Source: Escherichia coli (GTDB taxonomy: Bacteria > Pseudomonadota > Gammaproteobacteria > Enterobacterales > Enterobacteriaceae). From it: a stretch of DNA of 64,000 bases. The DNA is taken from NCBI RefSeq assembly GCF_011045215.1, contig NZ_CP049201.1, one strand, 5' to 3'. How positions within the stretch are numbered: the stretch's first letter is position 1; the number at the start of each line of letters is the position of its first letter. This document shows positions 48,706 to 57,110 of the stretch, one piece after another. Under the pieces are notes generated by a model. It did not search any database. It was not told the origin of the DNA and was given only the letters and a program-made list of their open reading frames with translations. The position numbers and the translations under genes were made by a program.

Positions 48706-48807
48706 ATGCCGGATGCGGCGTAAACGCCTTATCCGGCCTACAAGATCCAAAGAAATCAGTAAATTGCAGCACACATTGTAGGCCTGATAAGCGTAGCGCA
48801 TCAGGCA
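48706..48807. repeat. Pair of REP (palindromic unit) elements
   Basis: gccggatgcggcgtaaacgccttatccggcctaca and the inverted copy tgtaggcctgataagcgtagcgcatcaggca. Confidence 0.8.
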
Positions 48808-48847
48808 ATTTCTCGTTGGTCATCACTTTTGAAATCAAACTTGACGA

Positions 48848-49231
48848 TTAACGCTTTTCCCAGCCGCCCTGTTGTGCCGTAAATCCCAGTGCCTGCATAA
48901 ACGCCGTCATCACACCGCGATCTTCCACGCCTGCATCCGCCATCCACCAGGATGAAACGCTGGGATTATCACGCAAAACCTCTTCCAGTAGATATTGCCC
49001 CACGCCGCGACGTCGGGTGACTTCCCGCACGCGCAGGGAATCCAGTGTTCCCCCAATGCCGCTCAAGGTTACGCGTACAGCCGCAAGCAGGCGCTCGTTA
49101 AAACGCGCGGCGTAGATGCGGTGGTTATCGTCAACCTGTAAAGAGGAAGGGGAATACTCCGGCCAGATCTTTTGCAGGTCAATCCGGTCCTGGTCGCTAA
49201 AGTTTTCTAATCGAATGATGGTCAGCTTCAT
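48848..49231 (-). CDS. panM: PanD maturation factor (GNAT-like)
   Basis: 127-aa ORF starting MKLTIIRLENFSDQD; conserved position between livJ and livK. Confidence 0.88.
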   Translation of the reverse strand: MKLTIIRLENFSDQDRIDLQKIWPEYSPSSLQVDDNHRIYAARFNERLLAAVRVTLSGIGGTLDSLRVREVTRRRGVGQYLLEEVLRDNPSVSSWWMADAGVEDRGVMTAFMQALGFTAQQGGWEKR

Positions 49232-49654
49232 GGGTAACCCGTGTAAATCACAAAAGTGGAACCAGTGTAGCGAAATAATTTAATCGGAGGCTTTCTCTTT
49301 TTTATTTCTTTTGGCAGGTGATTAATTTTTTAACAGCAATAATTGCAAAGTTAAAACATTAGAGAATGAAAAATACCCAGCATAATCCCCTGAATGGTAG
49401 TGAATTATTCCGCCCTTTGTGCCGTTATTTTATGCTGACAAAGGCACTTTTTTCTGTTTATCTATCAATAAATTCAGAATATTATCTGTTCTTAATCGAC
49501 TGAAAAATAGGGACTTTAATCGCTATTATCACAAAATACTGCGCTAAACCCTTAATCAGACAGGCAAAAACAGTGCAGTATAAAAAAAGAACAGTCTGAT
49601 TTGTTAACACATAAAAACAAAGCAACACAACATCACGAATGGGGATTTTTGACT

Positions 49655-50764
49655 ATGAAACGGAATGCGAAAACTATCATCGCAGGGATGATTGCACTGG
49701 CAATTTCACACACCGCTTTAGCCGACGATATTAAAGTTGCCGTTGTCGGCGCGATGTCCGGCCCGATTGCCCAGTGGGGCGATATGGAATTTAACGGCGC
49801 GCGTCAGGCGATTAAAGACATTAATGCCAAAGGGGGAATTAAGGGCGACAAGCTGGTTGGCGTGGAATATGACGACGCCTGCGACCCGAAACAAGCCGTT
49901 GCGGTCGCCAACAAAATCGTTAATGACGGCATTAAATACGTTATTGGTCATCTGTGTTCTTCTTCTACCCAGCCTGCGTCAGATATCTATGAAGACGAAG
50001 GTATTCTGATGATCTCGCCGGGGGCGACCAACCCGGAGCTGACCCAACGCGGTTATCAACACATCATGCGTACTGCCGGGCTGGACTCTTCCCAGGGGCC
50101 AACGGCGGCAAAATACATTCTTGAGACGGTGAAGCCCCAGCGCATCGCCATCATTCACGACAAACAACAGTATGGCGAAGGGCTGGCGCGTTCGGTGCAG
50201 GACGGGCTGAAAGCGGCTAACGCCAACGTCGTCTTCTTCGACGGTATTACCGCCGGGGAGAAAGATTTCTCCGCGCTGATCGCCCGCCTGAAAAAAGAAA
50301 ACATCGACTTCGTTTACTACGGCGGTTACTACCCGGAAATGGGGCAGATGCTGCGCCAGGCCCGTTCCGTTGGCCTGAAAACCCAGTTTATGGGGCCGGA
50401 AGGTGTGGGTAATGCGTCGTTGTCGAACATTGCCGGTGATGCCGCCGAAGGCATGTTGGTCACTATGCCAAAACGCTATGACCAGGATCCGGCAAACCAG
50501 GGCATCGTTGATGCGCTGAAAGCAGACAAGAAAGATCCGTCCGGGCCTTATGTCTGGATCACTTACGCGGCGGTGCAATCTCTGGCAACTGCCCTTGAAC
50601 GTACCGGCAGCGATGAGCCGCTGGCGCTGGTGAAAGATTTAAAAGCAAACGGTGCAAACACCGTGATTGGGCCGCTGAACTGGGATGAAAAAGGCGATCT
50701 TAAGGGATTTGATTTTGGTGTCTTCCAGTGGCACGCCGACGGTTCATCCACGGCAGCCAAGTGA
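49655..50764 (+). CDS. livK: Periplasmic leucine-specific binding protein
   Basis: 369-aa product starting [23 protein letters not shown]. Confidence 0.9.
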
Positions 50765-50811
50765 AAATCCCACCGCCCGTGAAATGCGGGCGGGTTTAGA
50801 AAGGTTACCTT

Positions 50812-51738
50812 ATGTCTGAGCAGTTTTTATATTTCTTGCAGCAGATGTTTAACGGCGTCACGCTGGGCAGTACCTACGCGCTGATAGCCATCGGCTACAC
50901 CATGGTTTACGGCATTATCGGCATGATCAACTTCGCCCACGGCGAGGTTTACATGATTGGCAGCTACGTCTCTTTTATGATCATCGCCGCGCTGATGATG
51001 CTGGGCATTGATACCGGCTGGCTGCTGGTAGCGGCGGGATTCGTCGGCGCAATCGTCATTGCCAGCGCCTACGGCTGGAGTATCGAACGGGTGGCTTACC
51101 GCCCGGTGCGTAACTCTAAGCGCCTGATTGCACTCATCTCGGCAATCGGTATGTCCATCTTCCTGCAAAACTACGTCAGCCTGACTGAAGGTTCGCGCGA
51201 CGTGGCGCTGCCCAGCTTGTTTAATGGTCAGTGGGTAGTGGGTCATAGCGAAAACTTCTCTGCCTCTATTACCACCATGCAGGCGGTGATCTGGATTGTC
51301 ACCTTCCTCGCCATGCTGGCGCTGACGATTTTCATTCGTTATTCCCGTATGGGGCGCGCCTGCCGTGCCTGCGCCGAAGATCTGAAAATGGCGAGCCTGC
51401 TTGGCATTAACACCGACCGGGTGATTGCTTTGACCTTTGTGATTGGCGCGGCGATGGCGGCGGTGGCGGGCGTACTGCTCGGTCAGTTCTACGGCGTCAT
51501 TAACCCCTATATCGGCTTTATGGCCGGGATGAAAGCCTTTACCGCTGCGGTGCTCGGTGGGATTGGCAGCATTCCGGGAGCGATGATTGGCGGGCTGATT
51601 CTGGGGATTGCGGAGGCGCTCTCTTCTGCCTATCTGAGTACGGAATATAAAGATGTGGTCTCATTCGCCCTGCTGATTCTGGTGCTGCTGGTGATGCCGA
51701 CCGGTATTCTGGGTCGCCCGGAGGTAGAGAAAGTATGA
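50812..51738 (+). CDS. livH: Branched-chain amino-acid ABC permease
   Basis: 308-aa polytopic ORF. Confidence 0.9.
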
Positions 51739-55485: not shown

Positions 55486-55519
55486 GGCGATTAGCTGGCC
55501 GTTAATCGCCTCTTTTCAG
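55486..55519 (+). terminator. Second hairpin plus T-run upstream of the ugpB promoter
   Basis: 8-bp stem GGCGATTA / TAATCGCC with 9-nt loop, followed by TCTTTTC. Confidence 0.45.
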
Positions 55520-55568
55520 TGCATTCTCGGGATATCCGTGCCCCATCTCCCATTTTCCCTCACCCACG

Positions 55569-55598
55569 CCGTCACCGCCTTGTCATCTTTCTGACACC
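55569..55598 (+). promoter_or_regulatory. Pho box array (PhoB binding) in the ugpB promoter
   Basis: Three 7-mers at 11-bp phase (ccgtcac, ttgtcat, ctgacac) approximating CTGTCAT direct repeats, about 120-150 bp upstream of ugpB. Confidence 0.5.
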
Positions 55599-55715
55599 TT
55601 ACTATCTTACAAATGTAACAAAAAAGTTATTTTTCTGTAATTCGAGCATGTCATGTTACCCCGCGAGCATAAAACGCGTGAATTCGCGCATTCGGTACAA
55701 CAAGAGAGATAAACG

Positions 55716-57032
55716 ATGAAACCGTTACATTATACAGCTTCAGCACTGGCGCTCGGACTGGCGTTAATGGGGAATGCACAGGCAGTGACGACCATTCCGT
55801 TCTGGCATTCTATGGAAGGGGAACTGGGTAAAGAGGTGGATTCTCTGGCCCAACGTTTTAACGCCGAAAACCCGGATTACAAAATTGTACCGACCTATAA
55901 AGGCAACTACGAACAGAATTTAAGCGCGGGGATTGCCGCATTTCGTACCGGCAACGCGCCGGCTATTTTGCAGGTTTATGAAGTTGGCACCGCCACCATG
56001 ATGGCGTCTAAGGCCATTAAACCGGTATATGACGTGTTTAAAGAGGCGGGGATTCAATTCGATGAGTCGCAGTTTGTGCCGACGGTTTCCGGTTACTACT
56101 CCGACAGCAAAACGGGCCACTTACTCTCCCAGCCATTCAACAGCTCGACCCCCGTTCTCTATTACAACAAAGACGCCTTCAAGAAAGCAGGATTAGACCC
56201 GGAACAGCCGCCGAAAACCTGGCAGGATCTGGCGGACTATTCTGCAAAACTGAAAGCCTCCGGTATGAAGTGCGGCTACGCCAGCGGCTGGCAGGGCTGG
56301 ATCCAACTGGAAAACTTTAGCGCCTGGAACGGTCTGCCGTTTGCCAGCAAAAACAACGGCTTTGACGGCACGGATGCGGTGCTGGAGTTCAACAAGCCGG
56401 AGCAGGTGAAACACATCGCCATGCTCGAAGAGATGAACAAGAAGGGCGATTTCAGCTACGTCGGGCGTAAGGATGAATCCACCGAGAAGTTCTATAACGG
56501 TGATTGCGCGATGACCACCGCCTCTTCCGGTTCTCTCGCTAATATTCGTGAGTACGCCAAATTTAACTATGGCGTAGGCATGATGCCTTACGACGCCGAT
56601 GCGAAAGATGCACCGCAAAACGCCATTATCGGCGGGGCCAGCCTGTGGGTGATGCAGGGCAAAGATAAAGAAACGTATACCGGCGTGGCGAAGTTCCTCG
56701 ACTTCCTCGCGAAGCCAGAAAACGCTGCCGAGTGGCATCAGAAAACCGGTTATCTGCCAATCACCAAAGCAGCGTATGACCTGACCCGTGAGCAGGGCTT
56801 TTATGAGAAAAACCCAGGGGCGGATACCGCGACGCGTCAGATGCTGAATAAGCCGCCGTTGCCGTTCACCAAAGGGCTGCGTCTGGGCAACATGCCGCAG
56901 ATCCGCGTGATTGTGGATGAAGAGCTGGAGAGCGTGTGGACCGGTAAGAAGACACCACAGCAGGCACTGGATACCGCCGTTGAGCGTGGAAATCAGTTGC
57001 TGCGCCGCTTTGAGAAATCGACGAAGTCTTAA
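55716..57032 (+). CDS. ugpB: Periplasmic sn-glycerol-3-phosphate-binding protein
   Basis: 438-aa ORF with signal peptide ([23 protein letters not shown]). Confidence 0.92.
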
Positions 57033-57043
57033 TCAGTGTAATG

Positions 57044-57110
57044 TCGGATGCGTTTCGCTTATCTGACCTGGCATCGCGTGTAGGCCGGATAAGCGAAGCG
57101 CATCCGGCAC
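57044..57110. repeat. REP/BIME-type element between ugpB and ugpA
   Basis: tgtaggccggataagcgaagcgcatccggcac preceded by a partial inverted copy (tcggatgcgtttcgcttatctgacctg). Confidence 0.7.

What the first reader, a model, noticed from the sequence alone, without database searches (positions are those of the whole stretch)
48706..57110. REP elements at two operon junctions
Classic REP palindromic units follow livJ (48706-48807, an inverted pair) and ugpB (57044-57110). They are expected features marking mRNA 3' ends or intercistronic stabilisers, useful as landmarks confirming the E. coli core backbone.
Basis: partly seen in the sequence, partly recalled or inferred. Interest (0 to 1): 0.15.

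Follow-up and report, generated by a model that had tools for sequence, protein, structure and literature searches.

The report
Known REP/BIME repeats at livJ, ugpB
The two spots are genuine copies of E. coli's common REP palindromic repeats, sitting where published mapping places the ends of the livJ and ugpB messages; this is well-known, ordinary biology, though both sites vary between E. coli strains.

Summary
Only four REP units stand out in the 64-kb window, and all lie at the reported coordinates. Units at 48707-48741 (Y type, 34/35 to consensus) and 48778-48807 (Z1, 30/30) form a textbook BIME-1, with the conserved L linker and an IHF-like core. It lies between the convergent genes livJ and panZ. 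Units at 57042-57071 (degenerate, no GTAG) and 57080-57109 (Z1-like, 27/30) form an inverted pair in the ugpB-ugpA spacer. It starts 9 nt after the ugpB stop and folds on the mRNA strand into a hairpin of about 30 bp (-49 kcal/mol). Both loci are essentially identical to K-12.

Independent support comes from a natural IS1397 insertion in the loop of the Y unit, and from published Term-seq 3' ends at both elements in K-12.

The BIME-1 is present in 69% of 5,426 complete E. coli genomes, and 30% carry the ataRT toxin-antitoxin pair instead. The ugp REP pair is present in 94%, and 6% carry another palindromic element. Novelty: already known.

The parts
48700..48826 (.). Complete BIME-1 mosaic between the livJ stop (48646-48648) and the panZ stop (48848-48850, minus strand). 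It comprises a left flank, Y unit, L linker, Z1 unit and a conserved right flank.
   Evidence: It aligns end to end with four independent BIME-1 copies (fdnI-yddM, gcd-cueO, fepA-entD, asnB-nagD) in alignment A3.
48707..48741 (-). REP unit A, Y type. The GTAG-first orientation is on the minus strand; on the plus strand it ends in CTAC (48738-48741).
   Evidence: 34/35 identity to the Y consensus. The RNA hairpin folds at -21.3 kcal/mol, z = -4.95. IS1397 is inserted in its loop, with a TAA duplication, in strain ETEC6333.
48742..48777 (.). L linker of the BIME-1, with an IHF-like core AATCAGTAAATTG at 48754-48766.
   Evidence: The core sits at the same aligned position as the AATCAATGGATTG / TTCAATATATTG cores of other BIME-1 copies. 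It matches WATCARNNNNTTR. [quoted passage not shown] Binding was not tested here.
48778..48807 (+). REP unit B, Z1 type. GTAG lies at 48778-48781. The stem is GCCTGAT (48782-88) paired with ATCAGGC (48800-06), with an AA bulge.
   Evidence: 30/30 identity to the Z1 consensus. The hairpin folds at -12.9 kcal/mol, z = -3.25. The K-12 Term-seq 3' end at 3598392(-) lies 5 nt past this stem on the livJ-sense strand.
48808..48826 (.). Right-flank motif of the BIME-1 (ATTTCTCGTTGGTCATCAC). K-12 lacks 12 bp of it.
   Evidence: It is conserved as gTTTTGCGTTTGTCATCAG in the other BIME-1 copies. The 12-bp gap in K-12 is seen in alignment A1.
57042..57071 (-). REP unit C, a degenerate left unit of the ugp pair. 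It has CTGG where CTAC is expected, so there is no GTAG on the minus strand. It starts 9 nt after the ugpB stop (57030-57032).
   Evidence: It matches the relaxed REP pattern and is 86% complementary to unit D. Its own hairpin is weak at -9.5 kcal/mol, z = -2.0. The ortholog in Pseudocitrobacter faecalis (L027) keeps CCTAC and the C residues.
57072..57079 (.). Short linker between the two ugp REP units.
   Evidence: Read directly from the sequence. It forms the apical loop of the long hairpin.
57080..57109 (+). REP unit D, Z1-like. GTAG lies at 57080-57083, followed by a 7-bp stem, an AA bulge and a 3-bp stem. It ends 20 nt before the ugpA ATG (57130).
   Evidence: 27/30 identity to the Z1 consensus. 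The hairpin folds at -14.4 kcal/mol. The 34-nt unit alone recurs at a median of 13 places per E. coli genome.
57042..57109 (+). Long inter-REP hairpin that can form on the ugpBA mRNA. The K-12 'primary' ugpB 3' end maps to window position 57058, inside its left arm.
   Evidence: -49.0 kcal/mol, z = -8.6 on the plus strand, against -38.3 kcal/mol on the minus strand. It is the RNAalifold consensus across 10 species or lineages with a REP pair here.

Best explanation
Both features are genuine members of the E. coli REP (palindromic unit) family. This family is the one that the literature proposes is spread by the REP-associated tyrosine transposase TnpA(REP).

The livJ-panZ element is a single-copy BIME-1: Y unit, L linker with an IHF-type core, then Z1 unit. 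When transcribed from livJ, its hairpins sit at the steady-state 3' end of the message. Transcription most likely stops further downstream, partly through Rho. Exonucleases then trim back to the Z1 hairpin, which protects the livJ mRNA. The same element can serve panZ transcripts coming from the other side.

The ugpB-ugpA element is an inverted REP pair squeezed into the 97-nt intercistronic spacer. On the polycistronic mRNA it folds into very stable secondary structure. That structure creates a ugpB-terminal 3' end and attenuates read-through into ugpAEC. The periplasmic binding protein is therefore made in excess over the membrane components, as in the classical malE-malF and hisJ-hisQ cases (recalled from memory).

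What is shown: the identity of the units, their folding potential and their position, plus K-12 3' ends and Rho-sensitive regions taken from published data. What is inferred: the causal link between the REPs and mRNA stability, attenuation or protein ratio at these two loci.
For: Identity:
- Consensus matches and pattern statistics.
- End-to-end alignment with four other BIME-1 copies.
- Dispersed copies: a median of 40 places per genome (capped) for the BIME-1 query and 13 for unit D alone.
- The definitions of y/z1/z2, GTAG, the AA bulge and BIME-1 in PMC3333891 and PMC8266576.
- A natural IS1397 insertion, flanked by a TAA duplication, in the loop of unit A. IS1397 is documented to target REPs (PMC1525189).

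RNA role:
- Hairpin energies with z between -3.3 and -8.6 for all but the degenerate unit C (z = -2.0) and unit D (z = -2.4) taken alone.
- No canonical intrinsic terminator at either site. The alternative O157 allele, by contrast, has a clear hairpin plus T-run immediately after livJ.
- K-12 Term-seq: a 3' end at 3598392(-) in M63 medium, 5 nt past the Z1 stem, and the 'primary ugpB' 3' end at 3590983(-) in LB OD 2.0, which maps to window 57058 (PMC7815308 supplement 1).
- Rho-sensitive regions near the ugpB 3' end (3591086-, score 2.6) and on the panZ-sense strand beyond the BIME (3598762+, score 3.4) (supplement 2).
[quoted passage not shown] It also reports upstream-biased expression for tandem gene pairs with REPs and raised expression for convergent pairs.

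Conservation of structure rather than sequence:
- In 31 of the 36 loci with a ugpB-ugpA gap that were analysed, the gap folds with z <= -3. The elements differ in kind: REP pairs, GGGAGAGGG-type palindromes or plain hairpins.
- The livK-livH junction also carries a GC-rich hairpin.
Against: - No experiment on these two REPs was found in the papers the tools could search.
- The K-12 ugpB 3' end lies inside the left unit rather than a few nucleotides past a stem. That fits endonucleolytic processing better than a simple exonuclease block.
- 30% of E. coli genomes do without the livJ BIME-1 and 6% without the ugp REP pair. One strain tolerates an IS in unit A. None of these elements is therefore indispensable.
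- The preprint found that REPs do not uniformly lengthen mRNA half-lives.
- Covariation support is weak: 1 compensatory pair, and 8 wobble-preserving against 3 A.C-type variable pairs.
Confidence: 0.8

Rival explanations
1. The elements act mainly at the DNA level. The BIME-1 would be an IHF-binding site (a RIP/RIB element) and a topological or nucleoid-organising feature, and any effect on RNA would be incidental.
For: The L linker carries an IHF-like core at the position conserved among BIME-1 copies. PMC3333891 lists IHF, Pol I and gyrase binding among REP/BIME properties.
Against: The core has one mismatch to the strict WATCAANNNNTTR consensus. The relaxed motif is non-specific, with 14 hits in the window. 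The ugp pair has no L linker. The 2026 preprint found no effect of REP325 on chromosome compaction and no REP-REP contacts. RNA 3' ends do map to these elements. This reading can coexist with the RNA role.
Confidence: 0.25
2. The elements are selfish or neutral mobile DNA. They landed in permissive 3' intergenic DNA and persist without any selected function at these sites.
For: All three nearby intergenic sites are polymorphic, with alternative occupants: ataRT, a TPR-protein gene, or another palindromic element. An IS1397 insertion in unit A is tolerated. Unit C has lost GTAG, which the literature reports as essential for TnpA(REP) recognition. That loss fits decay of a mobile element. In other species the livJ-panZ gap hosts ERIC-like and other repeats.
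Against: Across Enterobacterales the ugpB-ugpA gap almost always keeps a very stable hairpin, whatever kind of element supplies it. The substitutions in unit C mostly keep G.U pairing on the mRNA strand: -49.0 kcal/mol against -38.3 on the opposite strand. RNA ends map to the elements.
Confidence: 0.2
3. At ugpB-ugpA the operative structure is the long inter-REP duplex of about 30 bp, and an endonuclease cuts it. The enzyme could be RNase III acting in the stem, or RNase E acting at the GC|UUA bulge of the local hairpin. Cleavage uncouples ugpB from ugpAEC, rather than the hairpin simply blocking exonucleases.
For: The K-12 'primary' ugpB 3' end (window 57058) lies inside the left arm. It is 11 bp from the loop end of the 28-bp arm, not downstream of a stem. 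The long hairpin is thermodynamically dominant at -49 kcal/mol, against about -24 for the two local hairpins summed. It is also the RNAalifold consensus.
Against: No RNase III or RNase E mapping data could be retrieved for this site. Co-transcriptional folding may favour the two local hairpins. Only one Term-seq dataset is available, from a single growth condition.
Confidence: 0.3
4. The ugp REP lowers UgpB translation. The hairpin begins only 9-10 nt after the stop codon, so terminating ribosomes would stall and be rescued by tmRNA. This is the mechanism reported for REPs within 15 nt of a stop codon (Liang, Rudd and Deutscher 2015, recalled from memory; the paper could not be opened).
For: The spacing of 9 nt between the stop codon and the base of the stem is read directly from the sequence. 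The 2026 preprint acknowledges a role for REPs in translation regulation.
Against: Lowering output of the binding protein runs against the usual logic of ABC importer operons. The left unit is the weak, degenerate one when folded alone (-9.5 kcal/mol).
Confidence: 0.15
5. The matches are chance palindromes, not REP elements.
For: None beyond the failure of one rigid consensus pattern.
Against: 4 hits against 0 expected, 30/30 and 34/35 consensus identity, family alignment, genome-wide copies and IS1397 targeting.
Confidence: 0.01

Closest known systems
BIME-1 (Y + Z1 REP pair with L linker; also called RIP/RIB IHF-binding elements) of E. coli
   Same: The livJ-panZ element has a Y unit (34/35), a Z1 unit (30/30) and the conserved long linker with an IHF-like core. 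It also has the conserved flanks, occurs as a single copy at the locus, and lies extragenically between convergent genes (definition in PMC3333891).
   Different: Nothing substantive. The IHF core has G where the strict consensus has A. IHF binding was not tested.
REP doublets and REPINs (two inverted REPs with a short spacer forming one long hairpin), including short-linker and atypical BIMEs
   Same: The ugpB-ugpA element is two inverted REP units separated by about 8 nt, and it folds as one long hairpin. REPINs are defined as two inverted REPs separated by a spacer (PMC3337134 abstract).
   Different: The left unit has lost the CTAC/GTAG tetranucleotide, so by the published TnpA(REP) rules only one unit remains recognisable. 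The units have Z1 length but carry CCGG, as Y units do. The pair is not a canonical BIME-2, which is Y + Z2 in tandem copies.
Intercistronic REP stabilisers of ABC importer operons (malE-malF in E. coli, hisJ-hisQ in Salmonella) and REP325 in yjdMN
   Same: The gene for a periplasmic binding protein comes first, followed by a REP pair and then the permease genes. An upstream-gene 3' end maps at the REP, and a Rho-sensitive region lies nearby. The dual terminator and stabiliser model comes from the 2026 preprint.
   Different: The malE-malF and hisJ-hisQ comparisons are recalled from memory and were not checked here. No deletion experiment is known to me for the ugp REP. The mapped 3' end lies inside the left unit, not past a stem.
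Rho-independent (intrinsic) terminators
   Same: A GC-rich hairpin located at a 3' end.
   Different: No U-tract follows any of the four units, and the scanner finds no terminator-like site at either locus. The O157 allele does have a true intrinsic terminator after livJ.

Membership tests
REP / palindromic unit (E. coli y, z1, z2 classes) | An imperfect palindrome of about 29-37 nt that matches the class consensus | tested here: met
   Y 34/35 (unit A), Z1 30/30 (unit B) and Z1 27/30 (unit D). Unit C matches only the relaxed pattern.
REP / palindromic unit (E. coli y, z1, z2 classes) | The conserved GTAG tetranucleotide 5' of the stem | tested here: met
   Present for units A (as CTAC at 48738-41 on the plus strand), B (48778-81) and D (57080-83). 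It is NOT met for unit C, which has CTGG at 57068-71, so C is a decayed copy (criterion).
REP / palindromic unit (E. coli y, z1, z2 classes) | A stem interrupted by the conserved AA bulge or mismatch | tested here: met
   The folds of units B and D show a 7-bp stem, a 2-nt AA bulge, a 3-bp stem and a 3-nt loop. Unit A has the equivalent interruption (criterion).
REP / palindromic unit (E. coli y, z1, z2 classes) | Extragenic location and many dispersed copies per genome | tested here: met
   Both loci are intergenic. The BIME-1 query hits a median of 40 places per genome (capped), and unit D alone a median of 13.
REP / palindromic unit (E. coli y, z1, z2 classes) | Recognised by REP-specific mobile elements or enzymes (IS1397, TnpA(REP)) | tested here: met
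   A natural IS1397 insertion lies in the loop of unit A, flanked by a TAA duplication, in ETEC6333 (IS1397 specificity). TnpA(REP) cleavage cannot be tested with these tools, and no RAYT gene was sought in the window.
BIME-1 | One Y and one Z1 unit in inverted orientation, as a single copy at the locus | tested here: met
.
BIME-1 | A conserved long L linker carrying an IHF site | tested here: met
   The linker aligns with four other BIME-1 copies, and the IHF-like core lies at the conserved position. Actual IHF binding cannot be tested with these tools.
BIME-2 | Y + Z2 units with a short S linker, usually in tandem copies | tested here: not met
   No Z2-length unit is present at either locus. 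The only Z2 hits are the 11-14-nt segments shared with other classes. The ugp pair has a short linker but Z1-length units and a single copy.
Intrinsic terminator | A GC-rich hairpin followed directly by a U-tract | tested here: not met
   No terminator-like sites were found at 48300-49700 or at 56800-57300.
REP mRNA 3'-end stabiliser / attenuator | An RNA 3' end at the REP in vivo, with termination nearby that is sensitive to Rho inhibition | tested here: met
   This comes from published K-12 data only: 3' ends at 3598392(-) and 3590983(-), and Rho-sensitive regions at 3591086(-) and 3598762(+). Causality, which needs a REP deletion, cannot be tested with these tools.

The most novel reading that the evidence does not exclude
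The ugpB-ugpA spacer may be under selection for a strong RNA duplex as such. Different mobile palindromes would then have been recruited repeatedly as interchangeable 'ratio-setting' modules: GTAG-type REP pairs in Escherichia and Citrobacter, and GGGAGAGGG-type elements in Enterobacter, Kluyvera and 6% of E. coli. In E. coli the REP pair would act as a duplex of about 30 bp that is cut endonucleolytically inside its left arm, possibly by RNase III, rather than as two exonuclease-blocking hairpins. More widely, BIME-1 elements and small gene cassettes (ataRT, a TPR-protein gene) may be systematic alternative alleles at 3' intergenic sites.
Probability: 0.25. Interest if true: 0.35.

Novelty: already known. 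Interest (0 to 1): 0.12.

Why it matters
For annotation it matters little. These are two of the roughly 355 REP/BIME loci catalogued in E. coli K-12, and they behave as the current literature describes, as context-dependent elements at 3' ends.

The useful outcomes are three:
1. The calls are precise (BIME-1 versus a degenerate REP doublet), and they are tied to published 3'-end and Rho data.
2. REP occupancy is not a reliable marker of a 'core backbone'. Within 9 kb there are three intergenic sites where REP/BIME alleles alternate with gene cassettes or other repeats across E. coli.
3. The ugpB-ugpA junction is a clean natural example for testing whether structure, not sequence, is what is selected at the junction between a binding-protein gene and the permease genes.

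Tried and rejected
- A rigid 36-nt REP consensus with a fixed 4-nt loop gave 0 hits. 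Loop lengths differ between classes, so I replaced it with a variable-gap pattern and blastn-short.
- A fuzzy-regex scan of the window timed out.
- Rfam at gathering thresholds found nothing in the whole window. I am not aware of an Rfam family for REPs, and none matched.
- The RefSeq K-12 record held here lists no repeat_region features for this interval, so the curated REP numbering could not be quoted.
- Full-text searches for REP together with ugpB or livJ found no paper.
- The Liang/Deutscher paper on REPs and translation, and Clément 1999 on IS1397, are not held. Statements that rest on them are marked as recalled from memory.
- Supplements were not held for the RNase III cleavage maps or for two other Term-seq papers. 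The TERMITe supplements held no entry for these genes.
- 'GTAGG' and 'CCTAC' strings inside the O157 ataRT allele lie within the ataT coding sequence. They are not REPs.
- I considered treating the excess of G.U wobble as proof of RNA-level selection. The count is only 8 wobble-type against 3 A.C-type variable pairs, and these are not independent events, so I report it as suggestive only.

Full report
**Context.** The window carries the E. coli gene order rpoH, livJ, panZ (opposite strand), livKHMGF, ugpBAECQ (ORFs; K-12 annotation). Flanking DNA is 99-100% identical to many complete E. coli genomes. livJ ends at 48648 and panZ, which is convergent, ends at 48848. ugpB ends at 57032 and ugpA starts at 57130.

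**Observation.**
- A variable-loop REP pattern gives four hits in 64 kb against none expected. The conserved 14-mer tail gives three exact hits against 0.43 expected.
- Against the Y, Z1 and Z2 class consensus sequences, unit A (48707-48741) is Y type at 34/35. Unit B (48778-48807) is Z1 at 30/30. Unit D (57080-57109) is Z1-like at 27/30. Nothing else in the window rises above noise.
- Unit C (57042-71) is a degenerate copy. It is 86% complementary to D over 28 nt but has CTGG in place of CTAC.
- Both loci are essentially identical to K-12 MG1655. The exception is 12 bp after unit B that K-12 lacks.

**What the livJ element is.** Ton-Hoang et al. define BIME-1 as a single-copy pair of y and z1 units separated by a conserved long L linker that frequently carries an IHF site (PMC3333891). 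The window element aligns end to end with four independent BIME-1 copies from other loci. The alignment covers a short left flank, the Y unit, the linker, the Z1 unit and a right-flank motif that extends to about 48826.
- The 12 bp missing in K-12 belong to that right-flank motif.
- The IHF-like core AATCAGTAAATTG (48754-48766) sits at the family's conserved position. The relaxed motif is common in the window, with 14 hits, so its value comes from homology, not from the match itself.
- An ETEC strain carries IS1397, flanked by a TAA duplication, exactly in the loop of unit A. IS1397 is documented to insert specifically into REPs (PMC1525189). This confirms the unit's identity independently of the consensus matches.

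**What the ugp element is.** It is also an inverted pair, with an 8-nt linker, packed into the 97-nt spacer. It starts 9 nt after the ugpB stop and ends 20 nt before the ugpA start.
- Unit D has the canonical architecture of GTAG, a 7-bp stem, an AA bulge and a 3-bp stem (criteria). On its own it recurs at a median of 13 places per genome.
- On the mRNA strand the pair folds as one hairpin of -49.0 kcal/mol (z = -8.6). The opposite strand reaches -38.3 kcal/mol. The difference arises because three of the four arm mismatches are C-to-T changes that keep G.U pairs in the sense RNA.
- Pseudocitrobacter faecalis keeps an undecayed version of the same pair.
- RNAalifold on ten species or lineages that carry a REP pair here recovers the long hairpin. 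Variation is mostly one-sided and wobble-preserving, with only one compensatory pair. That is suggestive, not decisive.
- The pair is not a canonical BIME-2, because no Z2 unit is present. It is best called a REP doublet or atypical short-linker BIME, REPIN-like in architecture.

**Mechanism.** Neither site has a canonical intrinsic terminator. Published Term-seq data for K-12 (Adams et al. 2021, PMC7815308, supplement 1) list two relevant 3' ends.
- One, in M63 medium, is at 3598392(-). I mapped it to 5 nt past the Z1 stem on the livJ-sense strand.
- The other, in LB at OD 2.0, is at 3590983(-) and is classed as the primary ugpB end. It maps to window 57058, inside unit C just after GCGTTTCGC.
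- Supplement 2 of the same paper lists bicyclomycin-sensitive (Rho) regions at 3591086(-), near the ugpB 3' end, and at 3598762(+), on the panZ-sense strand beyond the BIME.

These data fit the model in which Rho terminates downstream and a REP hairpin defines the stable 3' end (PMC6061677). They also fit the dual terminator and stabiliser role shown for REP325, with upstream-biased expression for tandem pairs and raised expression for convergent pairs (preprint).

The ugpB end lies inside the left arm rather than past a stem. That points to endonucleolytic processing, either by RNase III on the long duplex or by RNase E at the GC|UUA bulge. I could not test this.

**Comparative evidence.** I fetched LivM-anchored syntenic loci from other species.
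- In 31 of the 36 loci with a ugpB-ugpA gap, the gap folds with z <= -3, but the elements differ. They include GTAG-type REP pairs (E. albertii, Citrobacter, Pseudocitrobacter, Pseudescherichia), CCCTCTCCC/GGGAGAGGG-type palindromes (Enterobacter, Kluyvera, Phytobacter, Rahnella) and plain hairpins. This argues that structure at this junction is what persists.
- The livJ-panZ gap likewise hosts REP pairs, ERIC-like elements, other palindromes or simple terminators.

**Population variation in 5,426 complete E. coli genomes.**

| Site | Allele in this window | Genomes | Alternative allele | Genomes |
|---|---|---|---|---|
| livJ-panZ | BIME-1 | 3,747 | intrinsic terminator + ataR-ataT cassette (O157:H7, E. 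albertii) | 1,626 |
| ugpB-ugpA | REP pair | 5,104 | 175-bp GGGAGAGGG-type palindromic element | 318 |
| livF-ugpB | 248-aa TPR-protein gene | 659 | BIME-1-like pair (K-12) | 4,630 |

In the ataRT allele the replacement begins right after the livJ stop codon. REP occupancy is therefore a strain-variable character, not a marker of the core backbone.

**Verdict.** The elements are already known in kind. Both loci are essentially identical to the K-12 reference, but no paper on these two particular REPs was found. Interest is low.

Noticed in passing
window 54492-55715 (ORF 54610-55356, + strand); K-12 L001:6327-6724: The livF-ugpB gap is 1,225 bp here and encodes a 248-aa tetratricopeptide-repeat protein (Pfam TPR_19 and related families, plus a weak sub-threshold PLDc_N hit near the N-terminus). 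K-12 has instead a gap of about 400 bp containing a BIME-1-like Z1-L-Y pair. The TPR allele is in 659 of 5,426 genomes and the K-12 allele in 4,630.
   Followed up: partly
L002:10170-11120 (O157:H7 strain 9000), equivalent to window 48649-48845: In 1,626 of 5,426 E. coli genomes, and in E. albertii, the whole livJ-panZ intergenic segment is replaced. An intrinsic terminator plus the ataR-ataT (GNAT toxin) module stands there instead, and the 3' end of ataT overlaps the 3' end of panM. No REP is present in that allele.
   Followed up: partly
L004:1069-2503 (strain ETEC6333), equivalent to window 48722-48724: An IS1397-family IS3 element is inserted in the loop of the Y REP and flanked by a duplicated TAA. 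This is a natural example of REP-targeted transposition at this exact unit.
   Followed up: yes
L003:2326-2500 (strain RIVM_C039227), with related elements in L010-L016, L020, L028 and L029: 318 E. coli genomes have a 175-bp GC-rich palindromic element (CCCTCACCCTAACCCTCTCCC...GGGAGAGGG...) in place of the ugp REP pair. It folds at -86.8 kcal/mol. Related elements fill the same gap in Enterobacter, Kluyvera, Phytobacter and Rahnella. I did not establish its family name; it may be boxC-like.
   Followed up: partly
L007, L009, L011, L015, L018, L023: livJ-panZ gaps: Several Citrobacter and Enterobacter-group species carry an element of about 127 bp downstream of livJ with the core ...CCCCGGTCACTTACTTATGTAAGCTCCCGGGGAT.... 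From memory it resembles the ERIC/IRU repeat.
   Followed up: no
window 57058 (K-12 3590983, minus strand): The published 'primary' ugpB 3' end lies inside the left REP unit, not downstream of a hairpin. That suggests endonucleolytic processing (RNase III or RNase E) of the REP pair.
   Followed up: partly
window 48657-48675; 50773-50793; 54498-54530: Other hairpins lie at 3' ends in this region. One is a GC-rich stem without a U-tract just after the livJ stop (-11.3 kcal/mol for the 48650-48700 segment). A second is a GC-rich hairpin in the livK-livH spacer (-16.8). A third is a strong hairpin after livF (-23.5, z = -4.7).
   Followed up: partly
whole window: The relaxed IHF-type motif WATCARNNNNTTR occurs 14 times against 3.6 expected from shuffles. 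This may be an effect of local base composition. It remains unexplained.
   Followed up: no
window 48647-48667 and 48836-48856: A 21-nt inverted repeat, 81% complementary, brackets the whole K-12-type livJ-panZ intergenic cassette. Its position roughly matches the boundaries of the segment that ataRT replaces in other strains. It may be chance.
   Followed up: no
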